From Acidimicrobiia bacterium (lineage in GTDB: Bacteria > Actinomycetota > Acidimicrobiia > Spongiisociales > Spongiisociaceae), in NCBI GenBank assembly GCA_022827785.1, contig JAJEIM010000042.1:2924-66923 (forward strand): a stretch of 64,000 bases of DNA. The letters run 5' to 3'. Shown here piece after piece: positions 10,492 through 57,111 of the stretch. A program made the position numbers and the translations under genes. Position 1 is the stretch's first letter; every line of letters starts with the position of its first letter. The notes beneath the pieces are model-generated. The model saw nothing but the letters and a program-made list of their open reading frames with translations, did not search any database and was not told the origin of the DNA.

Positions 10492-13113
10492 ATGCGAGCC
10501 AATGCCATCCGGCGCGCCTTCACCGACTTCTTCGCCGAGCGAGACCACGTAGTTCGTCCGTCCGCATCGTTGATTCCCACCGATCCCACGCTGCTGGTGA
10601 CCAACGCCGGCATGGTCCCGTTCAAGCCCTATTTCCTCGGGGAGGAGGAGCCCCCCTGGCCCCGAGCCGTCAGCGTCCAGAAGTGCGTTCGGACCGTCGA
10701 CATCGACATCATCGGTACCACTGCGCGCCATCTGACCATGTTCGAGATGCTCGGGAACTTCTCGTTCGGTGACTACTTCAAGGAACTGGCCATCCGCTAC
10801 GCCTTCGACTTCGTCACCGGGCCGCTCGGCCTGGATCCCGAACTGCTCTGGTACACGGTCTACGAGACCGACGACGAGGCCGAGGAGATCTGGATCGATT
10901 CGATCGGGGTTCCCCCCGCTCGGGTGCAGCGGGGCGGCAAGGACAACTTCTGGCAGATGGGCATTCCCGGCCCGTGCGGCCCGTGCTCGGAGATCTTCAT
11001 CGACCGGGGTCCGGCCTACGGGCATGACGGAGGCCCGATCGGTGGTGGCGAGGACCGGTTCGTGGAGCTGTGGAATCTGGTCTTCATGCAGAACATCCAG
11101 GACGAGCCCTATCACGTCGTCGGCGACATCCCCGCCAAGGGGATAGATACCGGTACCGGGCTGGAGCGCCTGGCGATGATCCTCCAGGGGGTCGACACCC
11201 TCTTCGAGGCCGACTGTGTCCATGACGTGCTGGCGGCTGCGTCGGGCGCCCTGGGCCGGACCTATGGCGAGGACGAACGGGTCGACGTGACGCTTCGCCT
11301 GCTCGCCGACCACGCCCGTGCCTCCACGTTCCTGATCGGCGACCGTGCCCTGCCCGGGAACGAGGGCCGGGGTTACGTGGTGAGACGCCTGATCCGCCGA
11401 GCGGTACGGCACGCCTGGCAACTGGGCAGCGAGAGCCTCATCATGCCCGGCCTGGCCGAGGTGACCGCCGACGTCATGGAGGATGCCTACCCCGAACTCA
11501 AAGCCAACCTCGACTTCATCCGGCACGTCTTCGAGCGGGAGGAGTCCCAGTTCCGGCGCACCCTCGCCACCGGTACCCAGATGCTGGACGAGGCACTGGA
11601 AGGTTCGGAAACGGATGAGGTCGTATCCGGTGCTCTGGCCTTCAAGCTGCACGACACGTACGGCTTTCCGATCGACCTCACGCGTGAGATCGTGGCCGAG
11701 CAACAGCGCGAGGTAGACCTGGACGGGTTCGAGGCCGAGATGGCCGCCCAGCGGACCCGGGCCAAGGCCGCCTGGAAGGGGGGAGCCGAGGCGGTCCGCG
11801 TCGAGTCCTACAAGCGCATCCTCGACACCGTCGGCCCCACCGAGTTCCTTGGTTACGTCAGGGACGATTCGCCTGCCCTCGTCCTCGCCATTCTCCGGGA
11901 GGGAGAGCTGGTGGAGAGGGCTGAGGCGGGTCAGGAGGTGGAGGTCTTCCTGGACAGCTCACCCTTCTACGCGGAGGCCGGCGGGCAGGTGGGCGATGTC
12001 GGCCTGATCGAGTCGGCGACCGGACGGATCGAGGTGGGCGACACGCAGGCGGCCGTGACCGGTTTGCACGGCCACCGAGGCAAGGTCGAAAGTGGGTTCG
12101 TCCAGACCGGGCAGGAGGTGGACGCTCGGATCGACAGCCCCCGGCGCGACCGCATCCGCAGGTCGCACACCGGCACCCACCTCCTCCATTGGGCGCTCCG
12201 GGAGGTGATAGGCGAGCATGCCAACCAGGCCGGTTCCCTGGTCCAGGACGGGCGCCTCCGTTTTGACTTCAGCCACTACACGGCGGTGCCTTCCGAAGAA
12301 CTCGGTGAGGTGGAGCAGCTGGTCAACCAGCGGGTGGTGGACAACCATCGGGTCGGGCTGCTCGAGACGTCCAAGGACGAAGCCGAGGCCATGGGGGCGC
12401 TGGCGTTCTTCGGCGACAAGTACGGTGAGCGTGTGCGGGTGGTCTCGGTGGGAGACTTCTCGGTCGAGTTCTGCGGGGGCACCCACGTGGGCAGTTCGGC
12501 GGAGATCGGGCCGCTGCTGGTCACCTCCGAATCCTCCATCGGGTCGAACGTTCGCCGGGTTGAGGCTCTGACCGGTATGGCCGCCTATGCCCATGCTCGG
12601 GAAGCGAGGGAGCGGTTGGCCGATGTAGGTCGCTTCCTAGGCATGTCGATGCCTGAAGTCCCGGCGGGCGTGCGCCGGCTCGCCGAGCGGGCCGACGCCA
12701 TCCAGAGCGAGTTGGATCAGCGCCGCCAGCAGGACAGGACAGCGGTCGCCGCCGACCTGGCGGGCGCGGCCCGGTGCACGGGTGATACCTCGTGGCTCGT
12801 GGCCGAACTCGACGATCACGCTCCGGTGGCGTTGCGCCAGGTCGGGGCGCAGGTCCGGGACCGGCTCGGGTCCGGTGTCGTGGTCCTGGGAAGCACGACG
12901 GGCGGCAAGGGGGCGCTGGTCGGCCTTGCGACCCGTGACCTGGTCGACCGGGGGGTCTCGGCGGCCGATCTCGTACTGGTGGGCGCCAAGCTTCTCGGCG
13001 GGGGAGGGAGTCGCGACCCCGAGTTATCACAGGCGGGCGGACCGAGAGGCGACAAGGTTGGCGAGGCGCTGGACGCGATTCGGGAGGCGGTGGCACGCCG
13101 TCTGAGTGCCTGA
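10492..13113 (+). CDS. alaS: Alanine--tRNA ligase
   Basis: 873 aa. N-terminus MRANAIRRAFTDFFAERDHVVRPSASLIP, FxGDYFK and the editing domain HTGTHLLHWALR. Confidence 0.95.
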   Translation: MRANAIRRAFTDFFAERDHVVRPSASLIPTDPTLLVTNAGMVPFKPYFLGEEEPPWPRAVSVQKCVRTVDIDIIGTTARHLTMFEMLGNFSFGDYFKELAIRYAFDFVTGPLGLDPELLWYTVYETDDEAEEIWIDSIGVPPARVQRGGKDNFWQMGIPGPCGPCSEIFIDRGPAYGHDGGPIGGGEDRFVELWNLVFMQNIQDEPYHVVGDIPAKGIDTGTGLERLAMILQGVDTLFEADCVHDVLAAASGALGRTYGEDERVDVTLRLLADHARASTFLIGDRALPGNEGRGYVVRRLIRRAVRHAWQLGSESLIMPGLAEVTADVMEDAYPELKANLDFIRHVFEREESQFRRTLATGTQMLDEALEGSETDEVVSGALAFKLHDTYGFPIDLTREIVAEQQREVDLDGFEAEMAAQRTRAKAAWKGGAEAVRVESYKRILDTVGPTEFLGYVRDDSPALVLAILREGELVERAEAGQEVEVFLDSSPFYAEAGGQVGDVGLIESATGRIEVGDTQAAVTGLHGHRGKVESGFVQTGQEVDARIDSPRRDRIRRSHTGTHLLHWALREVIGEHANQAGSLVQDGRLRFDFSHYTAVPSEELGEVEQLVNQRVVDNHRVGLLETSKDEAEAMGALAFFGDKYGERVRVVSVGDFSVEFCGGTHVGSSAEIGPLLVTSESSIGSNVRRVEALTGMAAYAHAREARERLADVGRFLGMSMPEVPAGVRRLAERADAIQSELDQRRQQDRTAVAADLAGAARCTGDTSWLVAELDDHAPVALRQVGAQVRDRLGSGVVVLGSTTGGKGALVGLATRDLVDRGVSAADLVLVGAKLLGGGGSRDPELSQAGGPRGDKVGEALDAIREAVARRLSA

Positions 13114-13556: not shown

Positions 13557-14680
13557 GCGCCTACCGGCGTCCGGATCGCCCGCCGGAGCGTCATACCGAC
13601 GGCGATGATCGGTGGCTGATCCGCGCCCGGGGCGGCATCACCGGCCTTCTGGTGGCGGCTGTCGTCACGTACGCCCTGGTGGTGGGGGGCGCCGGCCTGG
13701 GCAACTGGGTCAACAGGCTGGGCGGGCTCGGCGGAGGAGATGAGACCGTCGAGGTCGAGCCGGGTCGCACCGTGGTGGTGGAGATCCCGTCGGGGTCGAG
13801 TGCCCGCAGCATCGCCGGCATCCTCGTGAGCAACGGTGTGGTGCCCTCCGCCATCGAGTTCGAGTCATTGGTCCGGACCCGAGAGGCGGGCAGCCTCCTC
13901 AAGGCCGGCACCTACGAGTTGGTCACCGGAACCGACCTCGACGAGATCGTGGACCTTCTCATCGCGGGGCCGTCCCTCGATGTGTTCCGGGTGACGGTGG
14001 TCGAAGGACTCCGTCTCGGCGAGGTCCTGGAGGTGTTGGCCCTAGCCACCGGCGACTACACGGACGAGGACTTCACGGCTGCGCTCGCGAGCGGTGACGT
14101 CACCTCCTCCTACGTGCCCCAGGGTCTCGAGACAGGGGTATGGGAGGGGCTCTTCTTCCCGGCCACCTACGAGTTCTTCGGTGATGCAACCCCGTCCGAG
14201 ATGCTGCAACGGCTGGCGACCGAGATGGAGCGGCGCCTGGAGGGGTACGACTGGTCCACGGTCACCGCACGGGGCTTCTCGGTGTACGAAGGGCTGGTCA
14301 TGGCCTCGCTGGTGGAGGCCGAGGCCGGAACCGATGAGGACCGGCCCCTGATCGCCAGCGTTATCAACAACCGGCTGGAGCGGGGCATGCCGCTCCAGAT
14401 CGACGCCACGGTCCTCTACGCCCTGGGGGACCGGGGCCGGTCGCCCACGCTCGATGACCTCGAGTTCGAGTCTCCCTACAACACCTACCGGATCTCCGGG
14501 CTCCCGCCGACGCCGATCGGCGCGTCGGGCGCCAAGTCCATCGAAGCGGTCATCGAGCCGGCAGAGACCGACTACCTCTATTACGTTCTCACGTCGGAGG
14601 ACGGATCCCACTCCTTCTTCGTTGAATACGACGACTTCCTGGTGGCCAAGCAGCAGGCGGACGCTCTGGGGATCGGTTGA
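13553..14680 (+). CDS. mltG: Endolytic murein transglycosylase MltG (YceG family)
   Basis: N-terminal TM segment then a YceG-like domain (...LQIDATVLYALG...YNTYRISGLPPTPI). Start chosen at the ATG overlapping the ruvX stop, not the long upstream ORF extension from 13106. Confidence 0.85.
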   Translation: MSAYRRPDRPPERHTDGDDRWLIRARGGITGLLVAAVVTYALVVGGAGLGNWVNRLGGLGGGDETVEVEPGRTVVVEIPSGSSARSIAGILVSNGVVPSAIEFESLVRTREAGSLLKAGTYELVTGTDLDEIVDLLIAGPSLDVFRVTVVEGLRLGEVLEVLALATGDYTDEDFTAALASGDVTSSYVPQGLETGVWEGLFFPATYEFFGDATPSEMLQRLATEMERRLEGYDWSTVTARGFSVYEGLVMASLVEAEAGTDEDRPLIASVINNRLERGMPLQIDATVLYALGDRGRSPTLDDLEFESPYNTYRISGLPPTPIGASGAKSIEAVIEPAETDYLYYVLTSEDGSHSFFVEYDDFLVAKQQADALGIG

Positions 14681-15492
14681 TCCGGATGGCCTTCCTGCAT
14701 CTGGCGGTCCTCGGCGATCCGGTGGCCCATTCGCTCTCGCCGGTCATCCACGCGGCCGCCCTGGAGTTCGCGGGACTCGAGGGCGAGTACACCCGGCGCA
14801 GGGTTGATGGACAGGGCATGGGGCGGGCTGCCGCCGATCTGCGGTCCGGACGCCTGACCGGCGCCAACGTGACCATGCCCCACAAGGCGCTGGCCGCAGA
14901 GTTGGCCGACCGGCGCTCGGAAGCGGTGGTCCGGTCCGGCGGCGCCAACACCCTGTGGATGGAGGAGGGCCGGCTACACGCCGACTCGACCGATCCTGAC
15001 GGAGTGCGGTTCGCCTGGCAGCACGCCCGGCTCCCCGACGAAGCTCCGGTGCTGCTGCTGGGTGCGGGCGCGGCCGCCGCCGCGGCCCTCCTGGCACTGA
15101 GCGATCGTGACGTCCGGGTGGCGGCGCGGCGGCCGGAAGCAGCCCACGACCTGGTAGCCCGCGTCGGCGCCAGGGCGGCGGTCGCGCCGTGGGGGCGGCC
15201 GGTGGCGGGGGCGGTGCTGGTCAATGCCACCCCGCTGGGCATGGGTGGTGAAGACCTCCCGGCCGCCGTGCTGGAGCAGGCGGGGGGTTTGCTGGAACTG
15301 GCCTACGGCCACGGGCAGACCCCGGCAGAGATGGCGCTGCGGGCTCGGAACCTGCCAGTGGCCTCCGGGGAGCTGATGCTGGTAGGCCAGGGAGCGGCCT
15401 CCTTCGCCATCTGGACCGGCGTGGAGGTACCTCCGACCGTCATGCTGGAGGCGCTCGCCGGACACCGGGATCAACCCACAGCTCGCCCCTAG
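14677..15492 (+). CDS. aroE: Shikimate dehydrogenase
   Basis: LAVLGDPVAHSLSPVIHAAALEFAGL N-terminus typical of AroE. Overlaps the mltG stop. Confidence 0.85.
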   Translation: MIRMAFLHLAVLGDPVAHSLSPVIHAAALEFAGLEGEYTRRRVDGQGMGRAAADLRSGRLTGANVTMPHKALAAELADRRSEAVVRSGGANTLWMEEGRLHADSTDPDGVRFAWQHARLPDEAPVLLLGAGAAAAAALLALSDRDVRVAARRPEAAHDLVARVGARAAVAPWGRPVAGAVLVNATPLGMGGEDLPAAVLEQAGGLLELAYGHGQTPAEMALRARNLPVASGELMLVGQGAASFAIWTGVEVPPTVMLEALAGHRDQPTARP

Positions 15493-15602
15493 TGTCCCGG
15501 ATCGTTGGTTCGTCGGGTTCCAAGGCTTCCTGAACGAGGCACTTGACCGATCCGGATCGATCTTGATTCTCAGGCCTGTGACGTTGTCCGGCGACAAGGG
15601 GG

Positions 15603-15624
15603 TTGAATGTGTCACATCCGCGTT
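15603..15624 (+). promoter_or_regulatory. Candidate sigma-70-like promoter (TTGAAT -35, TATAGG -10-like) in a lower-GC intergenic patch
   Basis: TTGAAT-(15 nt)-TATAGG, read directly. Flanked by the inverted hexamers TGTGAC/GTCACA. Confidence 0.3.
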
Positions 15625-15837
15625 ATAGGTTGTTGGATTACCGCAATTGCCAAGCGGTTCGGCACCGACGTCGACCGGACCTCCGGAGGGATCAAATCGT
15701 TCGAGGTGGCCCCGTGGAGGGCATAGCGGACCGCGTCTCGAACCCAGGTGGTGGCGGTGGAGGAGGGCCCGCCGGGTCGGGTTTGGCGTGGCGATTTTCG
15801 CGTCATCTTTCCGATGCAGGACACAAGGAGCATGCTG

Positions 15838-15939
15838 ATGAAGACGGGGATGGGTTGGACCGCGATGTCTCTACCAGGGCTTTCATTGCCGAACTATCAG
15901 GCCACCCGGCCACTCTTCAGCACCCTCCTGGTGGACTAG
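15838..15939 (+). CDS. Candidate small protein (33 aa) with a strong SD, immediately upstream of the prepilin peptidase
   Basis: AAGGAG at 15825-15830, 7 nt before an ATG. ORF MKTGMGWTAMSLPGLSLPNYQATRPLFSTLLVD. No recognisable homology. Confidence 0.25.
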   Translation: MKTGMGWTAMSLPGLSLPNYQATRPLFSTLLVD

Positions 15940-15942
15940 GCG

Positions 15943-16719
15943 GTGCCGCTCCACCTTCTCATGGGAGTGGCGGGCCTCTTCGCGGGCCGATTCCTGGTGA
16001 CCCTGATCCGGGCCGACCTGGAGCGGGCGCCGATCAGGTCGGTCATAACCTGCCGCCCGGCCTGCGCTTGTCCTGCCAGGCCGGCGGACTACATGCCGAT
16101 GTTGTGGTGGGCGGTAAGCGGGGATCCCTGTTCCGGGTGCCACCGGCCTACCGGCGCACTTCACCGGCTGGTGGAGCCGGTGACCGCGGCCGCCTGGGCC
16201 GGTACGGCGTGGTTGGTCGGCGCGCAGTGGACGCTGGCGGCCCATCTGTGGATGGTGGCGGTGACGGTGGCGCTGGGCTTCGTAGACCTGCGGAGCTACC
16301 GCCTCCCCAACCGGGTGCTCGTACCCGGGACGGTGACGGGCCTTCTCCTGCTCGCCGGCGGCGCTCTTGCGGACGGTCGGATCGGCGACATGCCGGCGGC
16401 CCTGGCGGCCGGCCTCGGCTACTTCTGCGCGCTGCTGATCCCGGCCCTGCTGACCCGAGGCGCCATCGGGATGGGCGATGTCAAGCTGGCGTTCCTGCTG
16501 GGACTGTTCGCCGGTTACCACGGGTGGGAAACCGCCTTCTCAGCGCTGGCGGGGGCGTTCCTGGCGGTCGGATCGGCGGCCGCGGTGCTACTGGCACTGC
16601 GTCGTATCACCCGCCACGATTACCTGCCGTTCGGCCCGTTCATGGTCGCCGGGGCCTGGTTCGCGATCGCGCTACGAGTTGCCAACTACCAACTACTGTA
16701 TCCTGCCGGGTTCGTATGA
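15943..16719 (+). CDS. Prepilin (type IV leader) peptidase, A24 family
   Basis: N-terminal Cys cluster (CRPACACP...CSGCH) and the GMGDVKLAFLLGL catalytic-Asp motif. Multi-TM. Stop overlaps the argS ATG. Confidence 0.8.
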   Translation: MPLHLLMGVAGLFAGRFLVTLIRADLERAPIRSVITCRPACACPARPADYMPMLWWAVSGDPCSGCHRPTGALHRLVEPVTAAAWAGTAWLVGAQWTLAAHLWMVAVTVALGFVDLRSYRLPNRVLVPGTVTGLLLLAGGALADGRIGDMPAALAAGLGYFCALLIPALLTRGAIGMGDVKLAFLLGLFAGYHGWETAFSALAGAFLAVGSAAAVLLALRRITRHDYLPFGPFMVAGAWFAIALRVANYQLLYPAGFV

Positions 16720-34800: not shown

Positions 34801-35191
34801 CCGTTTCCTCCCGGTGTCCTGTACCCGAGAATCGTTCGTGTCCCGCTAGGCCCAGCCCGGACACGGCGACCCATCCGGAGACCCCTCGATTCCTCTCTAC
34901 GCATGGCTCTCTCCGCCGGATGAGTGTTGATTCGGCCAGGGGTAGCAGGTAACGTGTCACACCGCCGCTATATGTTGCCTATCGCCAAGCACCTACATCG
35001 GCCGAAGACCCAAGACCGATCGGAACGGCCGGTCCGGAGGGAACATACCGAGGCTTCATGGAGCGACCGTCGATTCCCGGCAGCCGGCCGGGCATGGCCG
35101 AACACGCTCCGAACCAGGAGGTGGTGGCGGGGGAGGGCCCGGCGGGCGAAGCCCGCTTTGCGCGATTTTCGCGTTCTGCCGGTCCAGGAAC

Positions 35192-35677
35192 CTAGAAGAC
35201 CCGGAACTCCCAGCTGTATCCGCCCTCGTCGGGAAGTCCGCTCAGCTTCCGCCAGTTCACCAGAACGGTGTGTGGTCCGGGCGTCCACAGGATGGTCGAG
35301 GAACGCGTCGGCGCCCACGAATGCACGCCGGTTCCCTCCACGAAACGTACCTCCGAGTCGGGCACCCGGAACCCGTCGATGTAGATGTCCACCCGGTAGC
35401 CGACCGGAACGTCCACCTCGACGGGCGTCTGGAGCGGTACCTGGCTGCCGGGCTGGGGCGAGATGCTCTCGAGCACGCGAGGTAGGGGCTCGCGACCCGT
35501 GTCCGGTGACCCGAACACGAACCCGATCACGACCACCAACACCGCCGCCAGTCCGAGCAACAGGAAAACGGCGAGGTAGCGCCGGTCGGTCAAGTCAGGC
35601 TCTCCACGGCAGGGGATTCTATGGGGTGGCTCACCTGTCGGGTCCGCCGCCGGGATCGTTGCCGTTCCGGGCGACAC
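35192..35677 (-). CDS. Hypothetical membrane-anchored protein
   Basis: 161 aa. TM YLAVFLLLGLAAVLVVVIGFVF, then a beta-rich region. No family recognised. Confidence 0.4.
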   Translation of the reverse strand: MSPGTATIPAADPTGEPPHRIPCRGEPDLTDRRYLAVFLLLGLAAVLVVVIGFVFGSPDTGREPLPRVLESISPQPGSQVPLQTPVEVDVPVGYRVDIYIDGFRVPDSEVRFVEGTGVHSWAPTRSSTILWTPGPHTVLVNWRKLSGLPDEGGYSWEFRVF

Positions 35678-35722
35678 GTGGGCCGGAGTGGGTTGTCATG
35701 GCCATGACGCTACCCTGATCCC

Positions 35723-43614: not shown

Positions 43615-44135
43615 TTCTGATGGGTAGGCAACCGAACATCCGCCTGCGCGCTACAGAGCGGCCTGTTGAAGACCTGGATCGGGCCCCGGAGCGGCGCTGG
43701 ACCCCGACCCGTCCCGGTGAGATCACCTCTCCTGCCGAGACTCCCTCCGGAGGGTCGTTCGGACGGCCGGGCCCCGACACCGGCTGGGGGTTGCGGATGA
43801 TCAGGGCGGCTTCGTTCGAGCGGGGCCGGAGGCCCCGAGATCTGGAGCGTCTTCTATGCGCGCTGGTGGGCGCTCGGGCATCCGGGGCTCGTCGGGGACC
43901 CACTCGCCAGGACGTGGAGGTGGCGCTGTCGCTGGTGGGGCTGCACGATGGCTACGCCCGGACAGGTGGCGCCCCGGAAGGGCTCGCCGAGGTGAGAGAA
44001 CGCTGGCTGGACGAGTTGGCACACGATCCCTGGCCGGGCCGCTCGGCGCTCGGGTCTGTCCCGGCCGACCTGCTCATGGACGAGCCCCACCGGGTTCGAG
44101 CCCGTCTCCAGGCTGACCCGTCCCTGGTCGGCTGA
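43596..44135 (+). CDS. Hypothetical protein (Arg-rich, no recognisable domain)
   Basis: ORF only. Overlaps the ilvE stop. Could begin at a later start (about 43620). Confidence 0.3.
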   Translation: MARLHLVLMGRQPNIRLRATERPVEDLDRAPERRWTPTRPGEITSPAETPSGGSFGRPGPDTGWGLRMIRAASFERGRRPRDLERLLCALVGARASGARRGPTRQDVEVALSLVGLHDGYARTGGAPEGLAEVRERWLDELAHDPWPGRSALGSVPADLLMDEPHRVRARLQADPSLVG

Positions 44136-44534
44136 CCGGCCGGAAGAGGGCGTCAAGGGTGTTCTCTCGCCGGTCCGGAGCCTGGCGGCCCGCGTCACGA
44201 GGAAGGCCGCTCCGGCATGGCCCGATCCCTCCGCCGACCCCCCGACCGGAGGAGCGCAAACCGTCGCCGCCTGCGGCGGCCCCGCCGGGCCCTCCCCCAC
44301 CACCACCTTTCCTGGGATGAGAGCGCGCTTCGCCGGGCCGGGCCTCGGAGCCCGCTCTCGATGTTTGATAACTCCTCGGGCGGCCGGGCCGACGTCTGGG
44401 CTCGGGGCCGCCGGGTATTTGGTGATCCCCAACATGGTGCGACCCTGTGACAGATACGGCCCCGTCGCCCCGAGAACGCGAAAAAACCTCCGCCTGAGAC
44501 CCGGACCGCCGCGTTCGCCAGGGAGCGTGCGCCG

Positions 44535-45296
44535 GTGAAGATCGTCCGTATGCAGACCCCCGAGGGCATCCGTTACGGTGCTGTCGAGCCGGAAGGGATC
44601 CGCATCCACGACGGGACTCCGTTCGTAGCCTGGCAACCCACCGAGGTGGTGGTCGACTTCCGCCAGGCCCGTCTCCTGTCGCCGGTGTTCCCGACCAAGG
44701 TGATCGGCGTCACCGCCAACTACGCCTCCGGCTCGGACGATGCCGGCAGTGCGCTTCCGGACAGGCCGAGCCTGTTCATCAAGCCCTCCACGTCCGTCAT
44801 CGGCCCGAGCCAGGCGATCGTGCTGCCTGCCCTGTCCGGCGAGGTCCACCACGGAGCGGCCCTGGCCGTGGTGATCGGCAAGGTCGCCCGCAAGGTGGCG
44901 GTCGAGGATGCCGCCTCGGTGGTGCTCGGCTACACCGCCGGTAACGACATCACGGCCCAGGACCTTCTCCGGGAGGAGCAGCAGCCGGGCCGGGCCAAGA
45001 GCTTCGACTCCTTCTGCCCGCTCGGGCCGGCCATCGAGACCGAATACGATCCTTTGGAGGACTTCTCCCTCGAATGCCGTGTGAACGGCGTATTGCGACA
45101 GGGAACATCGATCAACGACATGATCTTCGGGGTGGCGGAGTTGATCTCGTTCGTGACCTACGTGATGACCCTGCTGCCCGGTGACGTGATCCTCACCGGT
45201 ACCCCTCAGGGCGCCGGGCCGGTCAAGAGCGGCGATGTCGTGGAGGTGTCGCTCGAGGGAGTGGGCACCCTGACCAATCCGGTGGTGTCCGAATGA
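44535..45296 (+). CDS. Fumarylacetoacetate hydrolase (FAH) family protein
   Basis: Conserved FAH-fold C-terminal half (GYTAGNDITAQDL...PGDVILTGTPQG). GTG start. Confidence 0.8.
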   Translation: MKIVRMQTPEGIRYGAVEPEGIRIHDGTPFVAWQPTEVVVDFRQARLLSPVFPTKVIGVTANYASGSDDAGSALPDRPSLFIKPSTSVIGPSQAIVLPALSGEVHHGAALAVVIGKVARKVAVEDAASVVLGYTAGNDITAQDLLREEQQPGRAKSFDSFCPLGPAIETEYDPLEDFSLECRVNGVLRQGTSINDMIFGVAELISFVTYVMTLLPGDVILTGTPQGAGPVKSGDVVEVSLEGVGTLTNPVVSE

Positions 45297-48945: not shown

Positions 48946-49371
48946 TCAGACTCGCTCCAGGACGATGACCGGGATGACCCGCGAGGTGCTGGACTCGTAC
49001 TCCGCGAACTGCGGGTAATCCCGCTTCTGCCTGGTCCAGATCTGATCTCGCTCGTCTCCGGTGGCGACGCGGGCGTGGACCCGGACCGTGTCGGTCCCGA
49101 CCTCCACCTCCGTACCCGGATTGGCCACCACGTTGTGGTACCAGTCGGGGTTGGTGTCCGCCCCGGCCTTGGAGGCGAAGATCGCGTAGCCATCGGCCAA
49201 GTCCTGATACACGAGCGGTGTGACCCGCCGGGTCCCGGTGCGGGCGCCCGTGTTGTGAAGGAGAAGCAGGGGCTTCCCGTCGAACATTCCTCCTACCCGG
49301 CCACCGTTGGCGCGGAACTCCTCGATGATCGCCTTGTTCCAGTCGTTCATGTCCCTATTCCGATCGCTCAT
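48946..49371 (-). CDS. Deazaflavin (F420)-dependent nitroreductase family protein (Ddn-like, DUF385)
   Basis: LLLLHNTGARTGTRRVTPLVY...ASKAGADTNPDWYHN pattern of the Ddn/F420H2-dependent family. Internal ATG start (141 aa). Confidence 0.7.
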   Translation of the reverse strand: MSDRNRDMNDWNKAIIEEFRANGGRVGGMFDGKPLLLLHNTGARTGTRRVTPLVYQDLADGYAIFASKAGADTNPDWYHNVVANPGTEVEVGTDTVRVHARVATGDERDQIWTRQKRDYPQFAEYESSTSRVIPVIVLERV

Positions 49372-49563
49372 CCTGCGCTCCGATCCGTGTCCTTGCTCAA
49401 GGGACTGTCGAAGCCCGCGCCGATGATGCCATGGTCCTGTCACAACCGTAAGGCTGATCCGTCGATCCTTCCTGGCGCCATGGCGGATCGGCTGGTAAAA
49501 GTCCCCACCGTGCGGGAGAAAAGTCTGTTTTCCACATGCAAGGGCCAAAGCAAATCATAAGTT

Positions 49564-50742
49564 ATGATGGCTAATCGGAACACGACGTGCTTCAGAGACG
49601 AGAGTAATGGGGATGGGTCGAGAAAGGCAGCCTTCGACTCCGCGCCGGCGGCTGGGATGATGGCGAGTCGAGGATCCGGGGGAGCGGTGTCAGCTATGCC
49701 AACCCGGCGTAGTGTGGTACTTGAGAACGTCCCGCTGGCCTCGCCGTTTCCTGAGGGTTGGTACTTCGTCACGAGCCGTAAGGCGCTCGAAGCCGGGATG
49801 ATCGAAAAGACCTGGATGGGGGAGAAGATCGTCGCCTGGAGCGACGAGAACGGGAACGTGTGCGTCGCCGGCGCCTTTTGCCCGCACCTTGGCGCCGATC
49901 TGGGACCGACCGCGGGAGGGCGCATCTGCGATGGGAGGCTGGTCTGCCCGTTCCATGGCTACGAGTTCGACGCGACCGGCCAGTGCGTGGCCACCCCCTA
50001 TTCACCCCCGCCTACCAAGGCGAAGTTGCGCGTCTTCGAGACCCGGGAAATCGCCGGCATGATCTTCGCCTGGTGGGGGATCGGGGGGCGGGCACCGCAA
50101 TGGAGCCTGGCTGACGACGATCTGGACCAGGACGGATGGACCGGTCTCAAGATCAGGACCGTCCGCTTTCCCGGCCATCCCCAGGAGACCACGGAGAACT
50201 CGGTGGACGTGGGCCACCTGCGCTACGTCCATGGCTATGACAGCGTGAGTCGTGTCGGGCGGGTCTCGGTGGACGGGGCGCGTCTTGAGAGCGACTTCGA
50301 CTTCATGCGCACCCGGACCATCGGCAAGGTGTTGAACCTCACCTTCGACGTGGCGGCGCGTACCCGTATCTTCGGGTTGGGCTATTCGTTCGTGCAGATC
50401 CGCGAGCGCTCGATCGGAATGGACATGCGCCTGTGGGTGCTGGCCACGCCGGTCGACGGTTTGCTCATCGACCTGTCACTGGTTTCGCAGGTGCGGGAGA
50501 TACGCAAGCCGCGGCGGTGGATAGCGGGCCTGGGGTTTCTGCCGGTGAAGTTACGCGCCCCCATCATGAACCGGTTCATTTCCGCTCAGCAATACGGGGA
50601 CGTCCAGCAGGACGTGATCATCTGGAGCCGCAAACAGTACCGATCCCGCCCGCTTCTCTGCCGTTCCGACGGCGAGATCATGCCGTTCCGGCGCTACTGC
50701 GCCCAGTTCTACCCCGACCGGGGCGACCCGGAGAACCGCTAG
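49564..50742 (+). CDS. Rieske [2Fe-2S] non-heme-iron oxygenase, KshA/Neverland-like
   Basis: Rieske motif CPHLGADLG-x17-CPFHGYEF. Mononuclear-iron motif E-x3-D-x2-H-x4-H (ENSVDVGHLRYVH). About 390 aa like KshA. True start may be a later M. Confidence 0.75.
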   Translation: MMANRNTTCFRDESNGDGSRKAAFDSAPAAGMMASRGSGGAVSAMPTRRSVVLENVPLASPFPEGWYFVTSRKALEAGMIEKTWMGEKIVAWSDENGNVCVAGAFCPHLGADLGPTAGGRICDGRLVCPFHGYEFDATGQCVATPYSPPPTKAKLRVFETREIAGMIFAWWGIGGRAPQWSLADDDLDQDGWTGLKIRTVRFPGHPQETTENSVDVGHLRYVHGYDSVSRVGRVSVDGARLESDFDFMRTRTIGKVLNLTFDVAARTRIFGLGYSFVQIRERSIGMDMRLWVLATPVDGLLIDLSLVSQVREIRKPRRWIAGLGFLPVKLRAPIMNRFISAQQYGDVQQDVIIWSRKQYRSRPLLCRSDGEIMPFRRYCAQFYPDRGDPENR

Positions 50743-50860
50743 CGCGCGAGCTGACCGGATCGGGGGTATGCAGATGGCCCGCTGGGGAGGGACGTGTTCT
50801 CTCGGTTTTCGCGTTCTTGATGCCCGGGTATGGGCGACGAACTGCTGAATCAGCGCCCTC

Positions 50861-51949
50861 TTACAGCGGCTTGCGGGCCAGGAAACAATACAGCGGTGTG
50901 AAGATCCCGGCCCTGCCACCCGCGACATATGCCCTGGCGGTCCGATCCATCAGCCTCACGACGTCCGCGGTGCCTTCCGGAAATATCTTCACCAACTCGG
51001 CCAGCCTGAGTCCCCCGATCATCGCCTTCCGGCCCAATGGGACCCTGTACAGGGTGCCGCCCGGCGTGCCGCGCCGGGTCTCCATGGGCCGATACCAGGG
51101 AACGGGGTGGCTCGGACTGTTCTGCGCTACGGCCCGATCCTTCCCTTCGAGGACCTCGAATCCCGCTTCTTCGAGCGCCCGGTTCACCTCGCCCGTGGTG
51201 GCGATTCCGTCGAGCGCGATGCCGTGCATCAGCTCATGCTCGATGGCTCGGTGCCGGTCGTCGTCGGGATCGAACCTGTCCGTCAAGCACATCTCCTGGC
51301 CCCAGAAGAGAGCTCCGGGCTTGAGAACCCGGTGGATCTCCGCGAACGCGCTCACCTTGTCCGGCGCATGGCACGTCGATTCGATGGCGTAGCCGCGGTC
51401 GAATGTGTCGTCCGCGACGGCGCTCATGTCCATGAAGCTGCAGGCAAGGTAGTCGACCACGTGGTCGAGACCCGCCTCGGCATTCAACGACTTCGCCTTG
51501 TCCAATTGGAGATCGTTGTTGTTGACGCCTACGACCCGGACACCACCCTCCCGAACGACACGGCGCATCGGGCCGCCGATCCCGCAACCGACGTCGATCA
51601 CGGTCATGCCCTCGCGCAATTCCAGCTTGTCGATCATCAGTCGCTGGTGCCTGATCTGCGATTCTTCCAGGCTCTCCTCGGGCGACAGTGGCGCGAAGTG
51701 CAGGGACTCGCTCCAACCGAACACCATGAACTCCCCGCAAAGGTCGTAGTAGTCCCTCACGGTTTTGGCGTGGTCGTAGGCTGTTGCGCCGGTTCCCGTG
51801 CGAATTGCCCGGTCGGTCCATCCGTTGAAGTGGCGCACGCGACCGGCGACGTCCGTCCCACGGTACGTCGCCTTGAGCCCGGTGGCTAGCTCGCGCAGAC
51901 CCATGAACCCTGGGACATCAACAGCGACGGGGTGTCTTCTCGTGTCCAT
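50861..51949 (-). CDS. Sterol 24-C-methyltransferase (ERG6/SMT)-like SAM-dependent methyltransferase
   Basis: SMT region I YYDLCGEFMVFGWSESLHF. SAM motif VIDVGCGIGGPMR. GVNNNDLQLDKAK and YAIESTCHAPD match ERG6-family signatures closely (ERG6: GLNNNDYQI..AK, YAIEATCHAP). Internal ATG start at 51949. Confidence 0.85.
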   Translation of the reverse strand: MDTRRHPVAVDVPGFMGLRELATGLKATYRGTDVAGRVRHFNGWTDRAIRTGTGATAYDHAKTVRDYYDLCGEFMVFGWSESLHFAPLSPEESLEESQIRHQRLMIDKLELREGMTVIDVGCGIGGPMRRVVREGGVRVVGVNNNDLQLDKAKSLNAEAGLDHVVDYLACSFMDMSAVADDTFDRGYAIESTCHAPDKVSAFAEIHRVLKPGALFWGQEMCLTDRFDPDDDRHRAIEHELMHGIALDGIATTGEVNRALEEAGFEVLEGKDRAVAQNSPSHPVPWYRPMETRRGTPGGTLYRVPLGRKAMIGGLRLAELVKIFPEGTADVVRLMDRTARAYVAGGRAGIFTPLYCFLARKPL

Positions 51950-52109
51950 TCTCCGCGCACCAGAAAATACTACAGGGAGAGAGAGGCGATCATGGCTACG
52001 GCGGCAGGATGCATCCGAGAGGGATCCTGCCCACCCGTCGAATCGGTCTAGATCCGTCCGGTTCGGCGCCACGGCCAGTACCGGGCCACACTCTCGAGTG
52101 GATCGCCTC

Positions 52110-54137
52110 CTACACCGGCAGTTCGTGCCGCTGCGCGGCGATGACGAACTTCAGCTTGTTGTTCACCGACGAAGATGGGAACGGGCTGATCTTCAGCTTG
52201 TACCTGGCGGGTGAGATCTCGAGGGTGAAATGGTGTACGAGCATCAGCAAATGGATCGCCATTTGAAGTGACGTCCACCGGGAGCCCAGGCATGTGTGGG
52301 TACCCAGACCGTACGGCGCAAATGAGGATCCGACGTGTTCCCTGCGCGGCGCTAGATAGCGACCGATATCAAACGAGAAGGGATCGGGGAAGACTTCCTC
52401 CATGTAGTGTGTGGCCGTTTGGGCAATCACGACCCGGGACCCCTGCGGGAGTTCGTATCCGTCAACTGTGCACGTGTTCATCACGTTTCGATAGGATGCC
52501 GGCACGATCGGATAGACACGCATGCACTCCATGATGAACCGGCGTGTGACGTCTATCCCAGGTCCGGTGATCTCATCACGATCGGGATCCCCGTTGGCGA
52601 ACAAGGCATCGGCCTCGCCCTGGATCTTCTCGTAGAACTCGGGCTGTGACACCATCGCGTAGGTGATCAAGCCAAGCTGGTCACCCACATACATGCTTGC
52701 GATCAACGGCGCCGAGAGCACGAACGGCAGATTCGACTCCGGGAGGAACTGCCGGTCGCTCGTATGCATGCTCAGAAGGTCATCGGCAAGATCGCGAGGG
52801 CACCCTGCCCGCTGGGCGGGCGTGTGGACGCTCTGGACTCGTTCCACAACCTCTCCGACCAGCTTCGCCCGGCGCTTCATGGCAGGAGTACGCAGCATGA
52901 ACTTGGGCATGTTCCTGACGACATGGGTCTGAAGGGCTCGTTCCTTGAACTTGTGCAGGTCATCGACGAGATCCTGGGAATCGATACTGACGGTGAGCGG
53001 CGACATTGTTGCGTTGACCAGGCGCCTGCACATCGCCTTCGCGGGAAGCACATCTCCGACAGACCAGGCTGCCATGTGGTTCCGGGCATTGGAGTAGACC
53101 TCATCCAGCTGAGCTTCCAGCCTCGCGCGTGAATAGGCCGGCTGCATGGACTTGCGATACCGGAAATGATCACCACCGTCGAGGGTAGGCAATAACCCCG
53201 ATCCTCCGTATACCTTCTCGAAGTCCTCCAGATAATCCTTGGCCCTCAGATACATGCGCCCGTGCCGATGCACCCAGTGGTTCATTTCTGGTCCGGCGAG
53301 AAAGATCATCGGGTTGGCGAAGGGTGGACGAACCTGGAACACGGGACCATATTCTTGCGCGAGCTCTGCAAATAGTGCAGGAATATTACCTTGACGAAGG
53401 TGTCGACTGCCCAGCAGATGGCGAAGCGGCGCAACCGGAATCGGCTTAGCGAAAGCGGAGGGTCTGAACAAGGACCCAGCCAGGTTGTCGCTAACTGCTG
53501 CGGCGATGGACCTGCCGATCAGGTCCATCTTGCCGATGAATTCAACACGCCTTTCCGACTCTTCATCAAGGTCAAATATGAAGCGCAAGACATCACATGT
53601 ATTGATGAGACAGATGATAATGATATCTCTAGGGTCCGGAATCTCGTTGGCGAAGATCGCTCGACCGAGGCGCGTCTTGACGAAGTCTACAGCAGTACCT
53701 TCCCCAGATCTGGCATACGTGTCCTTCTGACATCCGCCCCGGGCCAACGACCAGAAGTCACCGTCGTGGTGCTGCAAGATCTTCAGGTCGACCAATCGAT
53801 CAAGGGTTAAGTCGATAATCGATTCTGCACGGGGAGCGAGCCGTTCGATCCAGTACTGGGCGTTCCGCTGAACCGGCTCTGCGGCGATCTTCTCGAGAAT
53901 AGGATCCAGGGCAGGATCGCCTGTTTCTGTTCGATCCAGAAGGATCAAGGAATCCATATCCGTGTCGATACGAGATAGCAGCGACAGCTCTCCCAACACG
54001 GCGCCGATAACGGCACAGTTCAGATCCCACCCGGGAACCTGCCGGAAGTAGCCACTCTCCTCGTTGAGGAGCGTGAGGACGAACTCGTCGAGCAAACTGA
54101 GCGTCTGACTGGTCGCACTGCTTGCGGTAAGAGTCAT
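52110..54137 (-). CDS. Cytochrome P450 with N-terminal GPP34/GOLPH3-like domain (fusion, 675 aa)
   Basis: C-terminal P450 has EXXR (ECMRVYP) and heme-thiolate loop FAPYGLGTHTCLGSRW. N-terminal about 200 aa match the GPP34 family (LLDEFVLTLLNEESGYF..VPGWDLNCAVIGAVLGELSLLSRI ... DPRDIIIICLINTCDVLRFIF). Lower GC than the flanks. Confidence 0.85.
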   Translation of the reverse strand: MTLTASSATSQTLSLLDEFVLTLLNEESGYFRQVPGWDLNCAVIGAVLGELSLLSRIDTDMDSLILLDRTETGDPALDPILEKIAAEPVQRNAQYWIERLAPRAESIIDLTLDRLVDLKILQHHDGDFWSLARGGCQKDTYARSGEGTAVDFVKTRLGRAIFANEIPDPRDIIIICLINTCDVLRFIFDLDEESERRVEFIGKMDLIGRSIAAAVSDNLAGSLFRPSAFAKPIPVAPLRHLLGSRHLRQGNIPALFAELAQEYGPVFQVRPPFANPMIFLAGPEMNHWVHRHGRMYLRAKDYLEDFEKVYGGSGLLPTLDGGDHFRYRKSMQPAYSRARLEAQLDEVYSNARNHMAAWSVGDVLPAKAMCRRLVNATMSPLTVSIDSQDLVDDLHKFKERALQTHVVRNMPKFMLRTPAMKRRAKLVGEVVERVQSVHTPAQRAGCPRDLADDLLSMHTSDRQFLPESNLPFVLSAPLIASMYVGDQLGLITYAMVSQPEFYEKIQGEADALFANGDPDRDEITGPGIDVTRRFIMECMRVYPIVPASYRNVMNTCTVDGYELPQGSRVVIAQTATHYMEEVFPDPFSFDIGRYLAPRREHVGSSFAPYGLGTHTCLGSRWTSLQMAIHLLMLVHHFTLEISPARYKLKISPFPSSSVNNKLKFVIAAQRHELPV

Positions 54138-54301
54138 CCGTCCGCCCCTCCGTTACCCAACCATGGAAACCTTAGCATGCAGGGGCTGTTTCGAGATCTG
54201 CGGGATAGGGCGAGGAGGGTGACGAATCCTGCCACCGCGTCACCTATGGCGAGCTTCGGGTAAAGGCACCCTGGCGGTCCGCGAGCAACTAGCCTGGGGC
54301 C

Positions 54302-56717: not shown

Positions 56718-57111
56718 CGATAGAACGACCCGGTCGGACCCATCACCGTGTGAAGGGTTCCGGTCGGGTCATTCCTTTCGCTGTCTCGGACGGCTCTTCG
56801 CAAACGAGCGGGTCGATATGTGTCCGACCGAGAGCCTCGCTCCCGAAAATCCGGTGCTTCGCATCGGGCCCCGCCCCCACCACCACCCATCCTGTTGGAG
56901 CGTGGTCGGCCATGCCCGGCTGGATGCCGGGGATCGGCTGTCGCTCCATGAAGCCTTCCATGTTCCCTCGGTCCGGCCGGTCCGATCGTCATCGGCCGGT
57001 TAGGTGCTTGGCGATGGGCACCTTATAGCGGGGGTGTGACGATTCCGGCCACGATCTGCGAGAACGCGAAAGAACGGTAAGGAAGCGCCTCCGCGATCGG
57101 TGAGGGTCGTG

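What the first reader, a model, noticed from the sequence alone, without database searches (positions are those of the whole stretch)
35164..35177. Recurring intergenic motif TTTCGCGTTCT(C) at five or more non-coding sites
Near-identical 11-14-mers occur at 35164-35177 (GATTTTCGCGTTCT), 50804-50817 (GGTTTTCGCGTTCT), on the opposite strand at 44472-44487 (GAGAACGCGAAAAAAC) and 57060-57075 (GAGAACGCGAAAGAAC), and in a weaker variant at 15793-15803 (GATTTTCGCGT). All lie in intergenic, locally AT-richer patches. The 44472 copy is about 50 bp upstream of the FAH gene. The 50804 copy is between the convergent Rieske and SMT genes. The 57060 copy is between tRNA-Glu and the SDR gene. In a 68% GC genome an AT-containing 11-mer recurring only outside genes is unlikely by chance. 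It may be a transcription-factor or sigma-factor site, or the core of a small dispersed repeat.
Basis: seen in the sequence. Interest (0 to 1): 0.55.

Follow-up and report, generated by a model that had tools for sequence, protein, structure and literature searches.

The report
End motif of a repeated small-RNA gene
The recurring 11-mer is real, but it is the conserved end piece of a roughly 290-base repeated unit that looks like a small structured-RNA gene with its own promoter and terminator, present in many copies in sponge-associated Acidimicrobiia and matching no described RNA family.

Summary
TTTCGCGTTCT occurs four times exactly (0.38 expected).

The motif is not a free-standing site. 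It marks the ends of a ~290-nt dispersed unit with four full copies and one 3' fragment in the window. The unit consists of:
- an optional 5' motif, 12±1 nt upstream of the -35 hexamer;
- a sigma-A-type promoter (TTGAAn, 17 nt, TAnnnT);
- a ~150-nt RNA with a three-way junction;
- a G-rich tract and a GC hairpin of variable sequence;
- the tail (A)TTTTCGCG(TTCT).

Covariation supports the RNA fold: 96% of cells paired, 21 of 35 pairs with double changes, G·U to A·C 85:12. No Rfam family matches.

Copies occur in sponge-associated Acidimicrobiia MAGs, at roughly one per 16-35 kb in the DNA I hold. They show no fixed orientation to neighbouring genes and no transposase, tRNA, phage or plasmid link. 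Some copies are conserved at orthologous loci; others are present or absent between relatives.

Best reading: the 3' motif is the terminator tail of a multicopy small-RNA gene. The identical 5' copy is unexplained. The RNA's function is unknown.

The parts
34956..34976 (+). Copy c35p promoter region: conserved spacer word GTCACAC (34956-34962) and -10 hexamer TATGTT (34971-34976). The hexamer at the -35 position, GGTAAC (34948-34953), is a poor match.
34981..35142 (+). Copy c35p RNA core. It has a closing stem P0 (5' CGCCA..CACC with GGUG.UGGCG), hairpin P1, junction GAGGGAACA, the P2/P2b/P3 arm and a G-rich tract ending in GGGCCCGG.
   Evidence: CM R1 162.6 bits, E 1e-29; nhmmer E 1.7e-65
35142..35177 (+). 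Copy c35p 3' module: GC hairpin GCGGGC-GAA-GCCCGC (35142-35156), TTT, mini-hairpin CGCGA-UUU-UCGCG (35161-35173), and the reported motif GATTTTCGCGTTCT (35164-35177).
   Evidence: tail HMM E 2.3e-13
57061..57072 (-). Copy c57m 5' motif CTTTCGCGTTCT. It lies 12 nt upstream of the -35-position hexamer and 41 nt after the SDR stop codon.
57020..57048 (-). Copy c57m promoter region: -35-position hexamer CCGGAA, spacer word GTCACAC (57034-57040), -10 hexamer TAAGGT (57020-57025).
56865..57015 (-). Copy c57m RNA core, 89.5% identical to c35p.
   Evidence: CM R1 150.3 bits
56811..56867 (-). Copy c57m 3' module: hairpin CCGATGCGAAGCACCGG, a degenerate tail ATTTTCGGGAGCG (56838-56850), and a further hairpin GGTCGGACACATATCGACC.
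   Evidence: (E 4.2e-07)
44473..44486 (-). Copy c44m 5' motif TTTTTTCGCGTTCT. It lies 13 nt upstream of the -35 position and about 50 nt from the divergent FAH start at 44535.
   Evidence: The ortholog in L120 has TTTCCGCGTTCTCGG while the flank towards FAH has diverged.
44431..44459 (-). Copy c44m promoter region: spacer word GTCACAG (44445-44451) and a weak -10-like hexamer CATGTT (44431-44436).
44285..44426 (-). Copy c44m RNA core (short subfamily). It is conserved at the same locus in L120 (88%) and L133 (91%).
   Evidence: CM R1 53.3 bits, E 8e-09
44251..44280 (-). Copy c44m 3' module: hairpin GCCGCC-GCA-GGCGGC (44266-44280) and a degenerate tail GGTTTGCGCTCC (44251-44262).
15603..15631 (+). 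Copy c15p promoter: -35 TTGAAT (15603-15608), spacer word GTCACAT (15611-15617), -10 TAGGTT (15626-15631).
15637..15772 (+). Copy c15p RNA core (short subfamily).
   Evidence: nhmmer E 4.7e-64; CM R1 21.5 bits, E 0.01, poorly aligned by the model built from the long subfamily
15768..15806 (+). Copy c15p 3' module: hairpin CCCG-CCGGGT-CGGG and the weak motif variant GATTTTCGCGTCAT (15793-15806).
   Evidence: (E 1.6e-07)
50773..50820 (+). Solo 3' module c50p, which has no RNA body: GATGGCCCGCTGGGGAGGGACG, a small hairpin (50787-50803), and GGTTTTCGCGTTCTTGA (50804-50820). It sits at the edge of an indel (~50763-52090) that carries the methyltransferase gene and is absent from relative L120.
   Evidence: A tail HMM built without window copies gives E 3.7e-04

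Best explanation
The 11-mer is the conserved end module of a ~290-nt dispersed unit that has the anatomy of an independently transcribed small-RNA gene.

Shown by the analyses:
- Each unit carries a sigma-A-type promoter (TTGAAn, 17 nt, TAnnnT).
- It encodes a ~150-nt RNA with a closing stem and two hairpin arms, supported by covariation.
- After the RNA come a G-rich tract, a GC-rich hairpin whose sequence differs from copy to copy, and then (A)TTTTCGCG(TTCT).
- The window sites at 35167 and 15795 are such 3' tails.
- 50807 is a 3' module that has lost its RNA body.
- 44473 and 57061 are a second copy of the same 12-mer, placed 12±1 nt upstream of the -35 hexamer of two other units.

Inferred, not shown:
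- At the 3' end, the hairpin plus the T-run acts as the intrinsic terminator of the RNA gene. The motif is kept because it is part of that module.
- Because it is the longest stretch shared by all subfamilies, it also serves as microhomology when copies duplicate or recombine. That would explain units bracketed by direct repeats of the motif and the solo module next to an indel.

The RNA itself most likely acts in trans, as a regulatory or protein-binding small RNA. It has no fixed orientation or distance to neighbouring genes.
For: Repeat and anatomy:
- Four full copies in the window, nhmmer E 1e-62 to 1e-65.
- At least 45 more copies in Acidimicrobiia loci.
- The alignment shows where similarity between copies begins and ends.

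Promoter:
- -10 hexamer: T 26/32, A 29/32, final T 31/32.
- -35 hexamer at 17-nt spacing: T18 T13 G25 A20 A17 of 32.

RNA structure:
- 96.2% of cells paired.
- 21 of 35 pairs changed on both sides, against 9.4±1.7 in shuffles (0/500).
- Covariation score 0.262, against 0.079 or less when partners are slid.
- G·U 85 against A·C 12 fixes the transcribed strand.

3' hairpin:
- The 38 nt upstream of the T-run fold at -15.2 kcal/mol on average at 54 element 3' ends, against -10.2±4.0 at random positions.
- The stems differ in sequence between copies.

Motif placement:
- In 385 kb of related loci, TTTCGCG falls 54 times at element 3' ends, 9 times at 5' ends, 20 times alone in intergenic DNA and 9 times alone in coding DNA.
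- The exact 11-mer is at 12 of 32 3' ends and 6 of 32 5' ends.

Other:
- Solo module c50p, E 3.7e-04.
- Not a leader: the downstream gene is convergent in 24 cases and co-oriented in 15.
- Selection: the c44m unit is 88-91% identical in two relatives at the same locus, while the flank beyond the motif has diverged.
Against: - The T-run is only 4-6 T long. It fails the simple terminator criterion of the scan tool.
- In about half of the copies the T-run is separated from the main hairpin by 6-10 nt.
- CGCGTTCT downstream of the T-run is conserved, although a terminator does not need it.
- The 5' copies have no hairpin upstream (-9.9 kcal/mol, the same as control), so they are not terminators. 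Their fixed spacing to -35, with a spacer that varies in sequence, looks like selection for a DNA-level role.
- The minimum free energy of the RNA is no better than shuffles (z -0.17).
- The covariation counts come from an alignment fitted to the model's own structure.
- No expression data are available.
Confidence: 0.65

Rival explanations
1. The motif is a binding site for a DNA-binding protein, either an activator or an UP-like contact for RNA polymerase. It brackets the RNA gene. At about -59 to -48 it would stimulate the unit's promoter, and at the 3' end it would act as a roadblock or insulator.
For: - The same 12-mer occurs where it is not transcribed from the unit's own promoter.
- The spacing to -35 is 12±1 nt in all 9 clear cases, while the spacer sequence differs.
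- No hairpin lies upstream of the 5' copies.
- CGCGTTCTCGG is kept in the c44m ortholog although the adjacent flank has diverged.
- The core TCGCGA is palindromic. Some tails read CGCGA-TTT-TCGCG or TTTCGCGAAA.
Against: - Only about one third of copies keep a 5' motif, and the others have decayed versions.
- The position of the 3' copy relative to any promoter is not fixed.
- No cognate regulator gene recurs next to the units.
- Copies without the 5' motif keep the RNA under the same conservation (c35p against L132, 91%).
Confidence: 0.15
2. The unit is a mobile or cassette-like element, and the motif is its recombination site. The element would be flanked by direct repeats because it integrates at, or excises between, TTTTCGCGTTCT sites.
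For: - Similarity between copies starts at the T-run of the 5' motif and stops right after TTCT at the 3' end.
- L058 has the exact 11-mer at both ends.
- Presence or absence between relatives. The ligA locus has the unit in the window and L132 but not in L133, L134 or L135. The SDR-tRNA locus has it in the window, L127 and L128 but not in L129 or L131.
- The solo module lies at the edge of the methyltransferase indel.
- c35p and c57m are 89.5% identical.
- The copy density is high.
Against: - There are no terminal inverted repeats.
- No transposase or recombinase recurs nearby.
- No copies were found in viral contigs or plasmids.
- There is no association with tRNA genes.
- Empty sites do not contain the motif, and the junctions are not clean.
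- Copies are old and divergent with compensatory changes, and are stable at orthologous loci.
- The shared part of c35p and c57m excludes both flanks, which fits gene conversion better than transposition.
Confidence: 0.15
3. The motif is a sigma-factor promoter element or an operator for the neighbouring protein genes (FAH, Rieske/KshA-like, SDR). One candidate is a half-site of a KstR-like steroid-catabolism operator.
For: - The 44473 copy is about 50 nt upstream of the FAH gene.
- AGAACGCG resembles half of the KstR consensus TnnAACnnGTTnnA and the GGAAC -35 element of ECF sigma factors. Both resemblances are from memory, not tested.
- A KshA-like gene is nearby.
Against: - Three of the five sites lie at the 3' ends of genes or units, not upstream of a gene.
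- There is no second half-site and no -10 partner at the required spacing.
- In 45 copies from other genomes the neighbouring genes are unrelated.
Confidence: 0.03

Closest known systems
TRIT, the sequence-conserved terminator motif of Mycobacterium (Gardner et al. 2011, PMC3152330; read)
   Same: It is a lineage-restricted, multicopy (147 copies) motif at transcript ends in a high-GC actinobacterium that has few canonical U-tract terminators. Its sequence as well as its hairpin is conserved. Its authors suggested that an extra factor may recognise it.
   Different: TRIT is a palindromic hairpin, mostly bidirectional, that overlaps stop codons of protein genes (around -8). Here the conserved part is the tail after a hairpin of variable sequence. 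It belongs to an RNA gene rather than protein genes, it is directional, and a second copy lies upstream of the promoter.
Multicopy trans-acting small-RNA gene families (for example Qrr, LhrC, csRNAs, cyanobacterial Yfr2-5; from general knowledge)
   Same: These are paralogous RNA genes, each with its own promoter and intrinsic terminator. They lie in intergenic DNA in any orientation, with conserved structure and conserved unpaired segments.
   Different: Those families have 2-10 copies of 60-120 nt and known seed regions. Here the density is about one per 16-35 kb, which by extrapolation means tens to about a hundred per genome. The RNA is ~150 nt with a three-way junction, and no seed, target or partner is known.
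Transcribed intergenic repeats and MITEs (Correia/NEMIS, ERIC, BOX; from general knowledge)
   Same: They are high-copy intergenic units of 100-300 nt. Some carry promoters or terminators and form RNA structure, and they vary in presence between relatives.
   Different: Those elements are defined by terminal inverted repeats or one long palindrome and by short variable target duplications. This unit has neither. Its ends are direct repeats of one fixed 12-mer, and its internal helices covary independently.
Integron gene cassettes bounded by conserved core sites (from general knowledge)
   Same: The units are bounded on both sides by the same short conserved sequence in direct orientation.
   Different: There is no integrase, no attC-type imperfect palindrome and no cassette array. 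The resemblance is only formal.

Membership tests
Intrinsic (Rho-independent) terminator | GC-rich hairpin immediately upstream | tested here: met
   At 54 element 3' ends the upstream 38 nt fold at -15.2 kcal/mol on average, against -10.2±4.0 at random positions. The stems differ in sequence between copies. This feature is not met at the 5' copies (-9.9) or at stand-alone 7-mers (-8.4).
Intrinsic (Rho-independent) terminator | U-tract of about 7-9 nt directly after the stem | tested here: inconclusive
   Only 4-6 T are present, followed by CGCG. In about half of the copies the T-run lies 6-10 nt from the main stem, inside a mini-hairpin CGCGA-UUU-UCGCG.
Intrinsic (Rho-independent) terminator | RNA 3' ends map to the tract | not testable with these tools
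   No transcript data are available.
Sigma-70/sigma-A-type promoter (of the unit) | -35 and -10 hexamers at 16-18 nt spacing, conserved in position | tested here: met
   The -10 hexamer fits TAnnnT in 23/32 copies and CAnnnT in 6/32. TTGAAn lies 17 nt upstream (G at position 3 in 25/32, A at position 4 in 20/32). Window copies c35p, c57m and c44m have poor -35 hexamers. The generic scan with a 9-of-12 rule does not list them.
Structured non-coding RNA | Base pairs supported by compensatory changes | tested here: met
   21 of 35 pairs changed on both sides. 82 such cells were counted against 17.5±4 in shuffles. There were 49 further pair types against 36.5±2. All measures 0/500. Slid controls give 0.079 or less against 0.262. 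Caveat: the alignment is fitted to the model.
Structured non-coding RNA | Folding energy better than shuffled sequence | tested here: not met
   z = -0.17 on the forward strand and -0.10 on the reverse strand. This test has little power at 69% G+C.
Any Rfam 15 family | Match at the family's gathering score | tested here: not met
   The whole window yields only 3 tRNAs. Permissive scans of c35p, c15p and c44m give only hits at E above 1, far below gathering score.
Riboswitch or cis-regulatory leader | Constant position upstream of, and co-oriented with, a regulated gene | tested here: not met
   The downstream gene is convergent in 24 cases and co-oriented in 15. Neighbouring proteins are unrelated.
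MITE or IS-derived element | Terminal inverted repeats | tested here: not met
   The ends are direct repeats of the 12-mer. No terminal inverted repeats appear in the alignment.
MITE or IS-derived element | Target-site duplication that varies between copies, and a cognate transposase | tested here: not met
   The flanking repeat is the same sequence in all copies. No transposase recurs among the neighbours.
MITE or IS-derived element | Insertion polymorphism between relatives | tested here: inconclusive
   Presence or absence is seen at the ligA and SDR-tRNA loci, but without clean junctions or polarity.
Transcription-factor operator | Fixed position relative to a promoter, with dyad or direct-repeat symmetry | tested here: inconclusive
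   The 5' copies are fixed at 12±1 nt from -35. Only a 6-nt palindrome, TCGCGA, is present. The 3' copies are not promoter-linked.
TRIT-type terminator | Conserved palindromic hairpin overlapping the stop codon of a protein gene | tested here: not met
   The conserved part is the tail, not the hairpin. The sites lie 40-370 nt from stop codons.

The most novel reading that the evidence does not exclude
The unit is a new kind of self-promoted RNA gene cassette, specific to sponge-symbiotic Acidimicrobiia. It would spread or be exchanged by recombination at its 12-nt boundary sequence TTTTCGCGTTCT. The structured RNA itself, or a host factor that recognises the boundary, would take part in that process. 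On this reading the motif is an att-like or cassette-boundary site rather than merely a terminator tail.
Probability: 0.12. Interest if true: 0.85.

Novelty: new member of a known kind. Interest (0 to 1): 0.55.

Why it matters
- It adds a covariation-supported RNA family that no Rfam model detects. The family occurs at unusually high copy number in an uncultivated clade of sponge symbionts.
- It gives a concrete model, with promoter, RNA and tail coordinates, that metatranscriptomes can test.
- It explains spurious ORF calls over these intergenic regions in MAG annotations.
- The motif-bounded units mark places where genomes of close relatives differ. One such place is the indel carrying a sterol-methyltransferase-like gene.
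- If the conserved tail or the 5' copy proves to be recognised by a factor, it would bear on how high-GC actinobacteria that lack canonical U-tracts end transcripts. That question was also raised by the mycobacterial TRIT motif.

Tried and rejected
- **Known RNA families.** Rfam at gathering score on the whole window, and at E up to 10 on three copies, found nothing relevant.
- **Consensus structure from plain MAFFT alignments.** RNAalifold on alignments of both subfamilies failed because of misalignment. I replaced it with a covariance model built on the long subfamily.
- **Thermodynamic stability.** Not significant.
- **Generic promoter and terminator scan.** It lists neither the unit promoters nor the tails.
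- **Small protein gene.** Rejected. There is no conserved ATG, indels are not multiples of three, and substitutions follow a covarying-stem pattern.
- **Riboswitch, leader or T-box-like RNA.** Rejected on orientation statistics and the absence of Rfam hits.
- **Operator or sigma-factor site for neighbouring genes.** I considered KstR half-sites, LexA, GlnR or PhoP-type repeats and ECF GGAAC..GTT promoters from memory. I rejected them because there is no second half-site or -10 partner and most sites lie at 3' ends.
- **5' motif as the tail of a decayed upstream copy.** The tail HMM finds no module there.
- **Guide-like match between the RNA's internal ACGCGUUC and the motif.** Seen only in the short subfamily, with no covariation.
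- **Associations with mobile or other elements.** I tested for association with transposases, tRNA genes, phages and plasmids and found none.
- **Empty sites carrying the motif.** Not found.
- **Literature.** Searches on the host clade and on small RNAs of sponge Acidimicrobiia found no papers.

Full report
**1. The observation**

TTTCGCGTTCT occurs exactly four times: 35167+, 50807+, 44473- and 57061-. About 0.38 matches are expected at up to one mismatch, and none of 100 shuffles reached four. At three mismatches the list is noise. The 7-mer core alone is not enriched, 7 against 6.7 expected.

**2. The motif is the end of a larger repeat**

Aligning the flanks showed shared sequence well beyond the 11-mer. 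A repeat search found 40-60-nt arms at 90% identity between 34956-35146 and 56867-57040. A profile built from the four regions recovers four full copies, each at E of 1e-62 to 1e-65:

| Copy | Coordinates | Strand |
|---|---|---|
| c35p | 34898-35199 | + |
| c57m | 57101-56803 | - |
| c44m | 44518-44222 | - |
| c15p | 15543-15834 | + |

In c35p and c15p the motif lies at the 3' end of the unit. In c57m and c44m it lies at the 5' end. The own 3' tails of c57m and c44m are degenerate: ATTTTCGGGAGCG and GGTTTGCGCTCC.

The fifth site, 50807, matches only the last ~45 positions of the unit. A profile of that 3' module, built without any window sequence, hits it at E 3.7e-04. It is a solo 3' module.

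**3. Where else the unit occurs**

A scan of one genome per species with the G-rich core pattern returned many loci. The profile confirmed full units only in MAGs labelled Acidimicrobiia, Candidatus Spongiisociaceae or Spongiisocius, or unnamed "bacterium" bins. Judging by the bin and isolate names, I take these to be sponge-derived. Ten of about 44 eight-kilobase loci hold a second copy.

The window itself is from GCA_022821195.1, contig JAJEEB010000002.1. The density is about one unit per 16 kb in the window and one per ~34 kb for second copies. That implies tens to about a hundred copies per 3-Mb genome. This is an extrapolation, not a count.

The six pattern matches in viral contigs do not carry the unit. 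A blastn search against the plasmid collection found no match.

**4. Anatomy of the unit**

These features come from the alignment of 32 copies. In order:

- **5' motif.** In about a third of copies, TTTTTCGCGTTCTCG ends 12±1 nt before the -35 hexamer.
- **-35 hexamer.** It is preceded by GGGG and reads TTGAAn. Counts out of 32: T 18, T 13, G 25, A 20, A 17.
- **Spacer.** It is 17 nt long and contains GTCACAC, conserved in 27 of 32 copies.
- **-10 hexamer.** It fits TAnnnT: T 26/32, A 29/32, final T 31/32.
- **RNA.** It begins about 7 nt after the -10 hexamer.
- **After the RNA.** A tract GGGGGnGGGCCCGG is followed by a GC-rich hairpin whose sequence differs between copies. Examples are GCGGGC/GCCCGC, CCGGTGC/GCACCGG, GCCGCC/GGCGGC and GCGCCG/CGGCGC.
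- **Tail.** The unit ends in (A)TTTTCGCG.

There are two tail classes. In one, the T-run follows the hairpin directly, and GTTCTTGA comes 15-20 nt later, followed by a long palindrome. In the other, the tail reads GCGCGATTTTCGCGTTCT, in which CGCGA-UUU-UCGCG can form a second small hairpin.

**5. The RNA is structured**

A covariance model built from the 14 long-subfamily copies finds the four window copies and 29 others. On the resulting alignment:

- 96.2% of cells form standard pairs.
- 21 of 35 pairs show changes on both sides, against 9.4±1.7 in shuffles.
- There are 49 further pair types, against 36.5±2.0 in shuffles.
- The covariation score is 0.262, against at most 0.079 when the partners are slid.

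Helices P1 and P2 carry most of the double changes. G·U pairs outnumber A·C 85 to 12, so the strand with the promoter and T-run is the one that folds.

The caveats are real. The alignment is fitted to the model. The folding energy is no better than shuffles, z = -0.17.

No Rfam 15 family matches any subtype.

**6. It is not a leader and is not tied to any gene**

Across 45 copies the downstream gene is convergent in 24 cases and co-oriented in 15. The upstream gene is co-oriented in 18 and divergent in 19. Neighbouring proteins share no family beyond orthologous loci, and no transposase recurs. There is no link to tRNA genes.

**7. What the motif does at the 3' end**

In 385 kb of related loci, TTTCGCG falls as follows:

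| Position | Count |
|---|---|
| Element 3' ends | 54 (50 intergenic, 4 overlapping called ORFs) |
| Element 5' ends | 9 |
| Stand-alone, intergenic | 20 |
| Stand-alone, coding | 9 |

Intergenic density is about 15 times coding density, but four fifths of the intergenic sites belong to the unit.

The 38 nt upstream of the 3' sites fold at -15.2 kcal/mol on average, against -10.2±4.0 at random positions. A variable GC hairpin followed by a T-run at the end of a promoter-bearing unit is the anatomy of an intrinsic terminator, so I read the 3' motif as its tail.

Three things do not fit a textbook terminator:
- The T-run is short.
- It is not always adjacent to the stem.
- CGCGTTCT beyond it is conserved.

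The mycobacterial TRIT motif is the nearest precedent for a sequence-conserved, lineage-specific terminator element in a high-GC actinobacterium. It differs in being a palindromic hairpin over stop codons.

**8. The 5' copy is not explained**

The 5' sites have no hairpin upstream (-9.9 kcal/mol). The tail profile finds no decayed module there. Their distance to the -35 hexamer is constant while the intervening 12 nt vary.

In the c44m ortholog of relative L120, CGCGTTCTCGG is kept although the flank towards the FAH gene has diverged. Many copies without an intact 5' motif have recognisable decayed versions.

Three options remain:
- an UP-like or activator site;
- an insulating element;
- a by-product of recombination between copies through the motif, which is the longest stretch common to all subfamilies.

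**9. Stability and turnover**

Some copies are stable at orthologous loci:
- The c44m-type unit sits at the same place upstream of the FAH gene in L120. A closely similar copy lies in L133 at what appears from the gene order to be the same locus. It is 88-94% identical among the three.
- The c35p unit is present downstream of ligA in L132 at 91% identity.

Other loci differ between relatives:
- L133, a relative at a similar distance, has only 31 nt between ligA and the 133-residue gene. L134 and L135 also lack the unit there.
- The c57m unit is present in relatives whose SDR protein is 93% identical (L127, L128). It is absent from those at 77-79% (L129, L131), where the SDR gene and tRNA-Glu are separated only by a shared hairpin.

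The empty sites do not carry the motif, and the junctions are not clean.

The core of c57m is closer to its paralog c35p (89.5%) than to its positional ortholog (84.3%). The similarity between c35p and c57m excludes both flanks. This suggests gene conversion between copies.

The solo module c50p lies at the edge of a ~1.3-kb segment that carries the methyltransferase gene and is missing from L120.

**10. Verdict**

Its third suggestion is the nearest, but the thing found is larger: a multicopy, promoter- and terminator-equipped structured-RNA gene family in sponge-associated Acidimicrobiia that matches no Rfam family.

- The role of the 3' motif as terminator tail is inferred from anatomy.
- The role of the 5' motif and the function of the RNA are open.
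- A mobile-cassette reading is not excluded, but it lacks positive evidence.

Noticed in passing
window 49564-54137: This is a cluster of three genes: a Rieske/KshA_C-type oxygenase, a methyltransferase with a Sterol_MT_C domain (50861-52072, - strand), and a 675-residue GPP34-cytochrome P450 fusion (52110-54137, - strand). The P450 gene has the lowest G+C in the window (0.56-0.60). The methyltransferase gene is absent from relative L120 (GltX 91% identical), where the Rieske and P450 genes are only ~95 nt apart.
   Followed up: partly
window 48946-49700; L116 versus L117 at locus positions 14412-16133: Two assemblies that carry the identical FAH protein differ by about 970 nt here. L117 has a full F420H2_quin_red gene (141 aa) plus a 283-residue gene. 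The window and L116 have a 61-residue remnant and lack the extra gene.
   Followed up: no
L045 about 4780-4830, and equivalents in L042, L034, L092, L106, L052, L076 and L008: Long-subfamily copies carry a further near-perfect palindrome just after the tail: GTTCTTGAGGCAGAGGGCGTCATATATGACGCCCTGAGCCTCAGG. Copy c57m has a degenerate version at 56811-56829.
   Followed up: no
window 34956-34962, 57034-57040, 44445-44451, 15611-15617: The word GTCACAC in the promoter spacer, just downstream of the -35 hexamer, is kept in 27 of 32 copies. That is better conservation than the -35 hexamer itself, and it is unexplained.
   Followed up: partly
window 54186-54244 (- strand): A weak match (nhmmer E 0.19) to the promoter part of the unit, GGATTCGTCACCCTCCTCGCCCTATCC, lies about 50 nt upstream of the P450 start codon. 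It may be chance.
   Followed up: partly
window 56865-57040 versus 34956-35142 and L127 4830-5014: The c57m core is closer to its paralog c35p (89.5%) and to the L132 copy (90.3%) than to its positional ortholog in L127 (84.3%). This suggests gene conversion among copies.
   Followed up: partly
L135 about 12100-12215: A 7-nt microsatellite (CACCATT/CACCTTT, about 15 units) fills the spacer between ligA and the conserved 133-residue gene, at the position where the window has the RNA unit.
   Followed up: no
window 35192-35677 (- strand): A protein of 133-161 residues with no Pfam match lies convergent with ligA. It is kept at that position in all relatives examined (L132, L133, L135) and displaced by an Mrp antiporter operon in L134.
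   Followed up: no
window 34924-35718 (+) and 43854-44852 (-); L127 4945-5181: Long ORFs and one called gene (78 aa in L127) run across the RNA units. They are probably artefacts of high G+C content.
   Followed up: partly
L074 5869-5882: A stand-alone exact GGATTTTCGCGTTCTGG lies 187 nt upstream of a unit that also ends in the motif. A two-mismatch variant, GTTCGCGTCCT, lies between them.
   Followed up: partly
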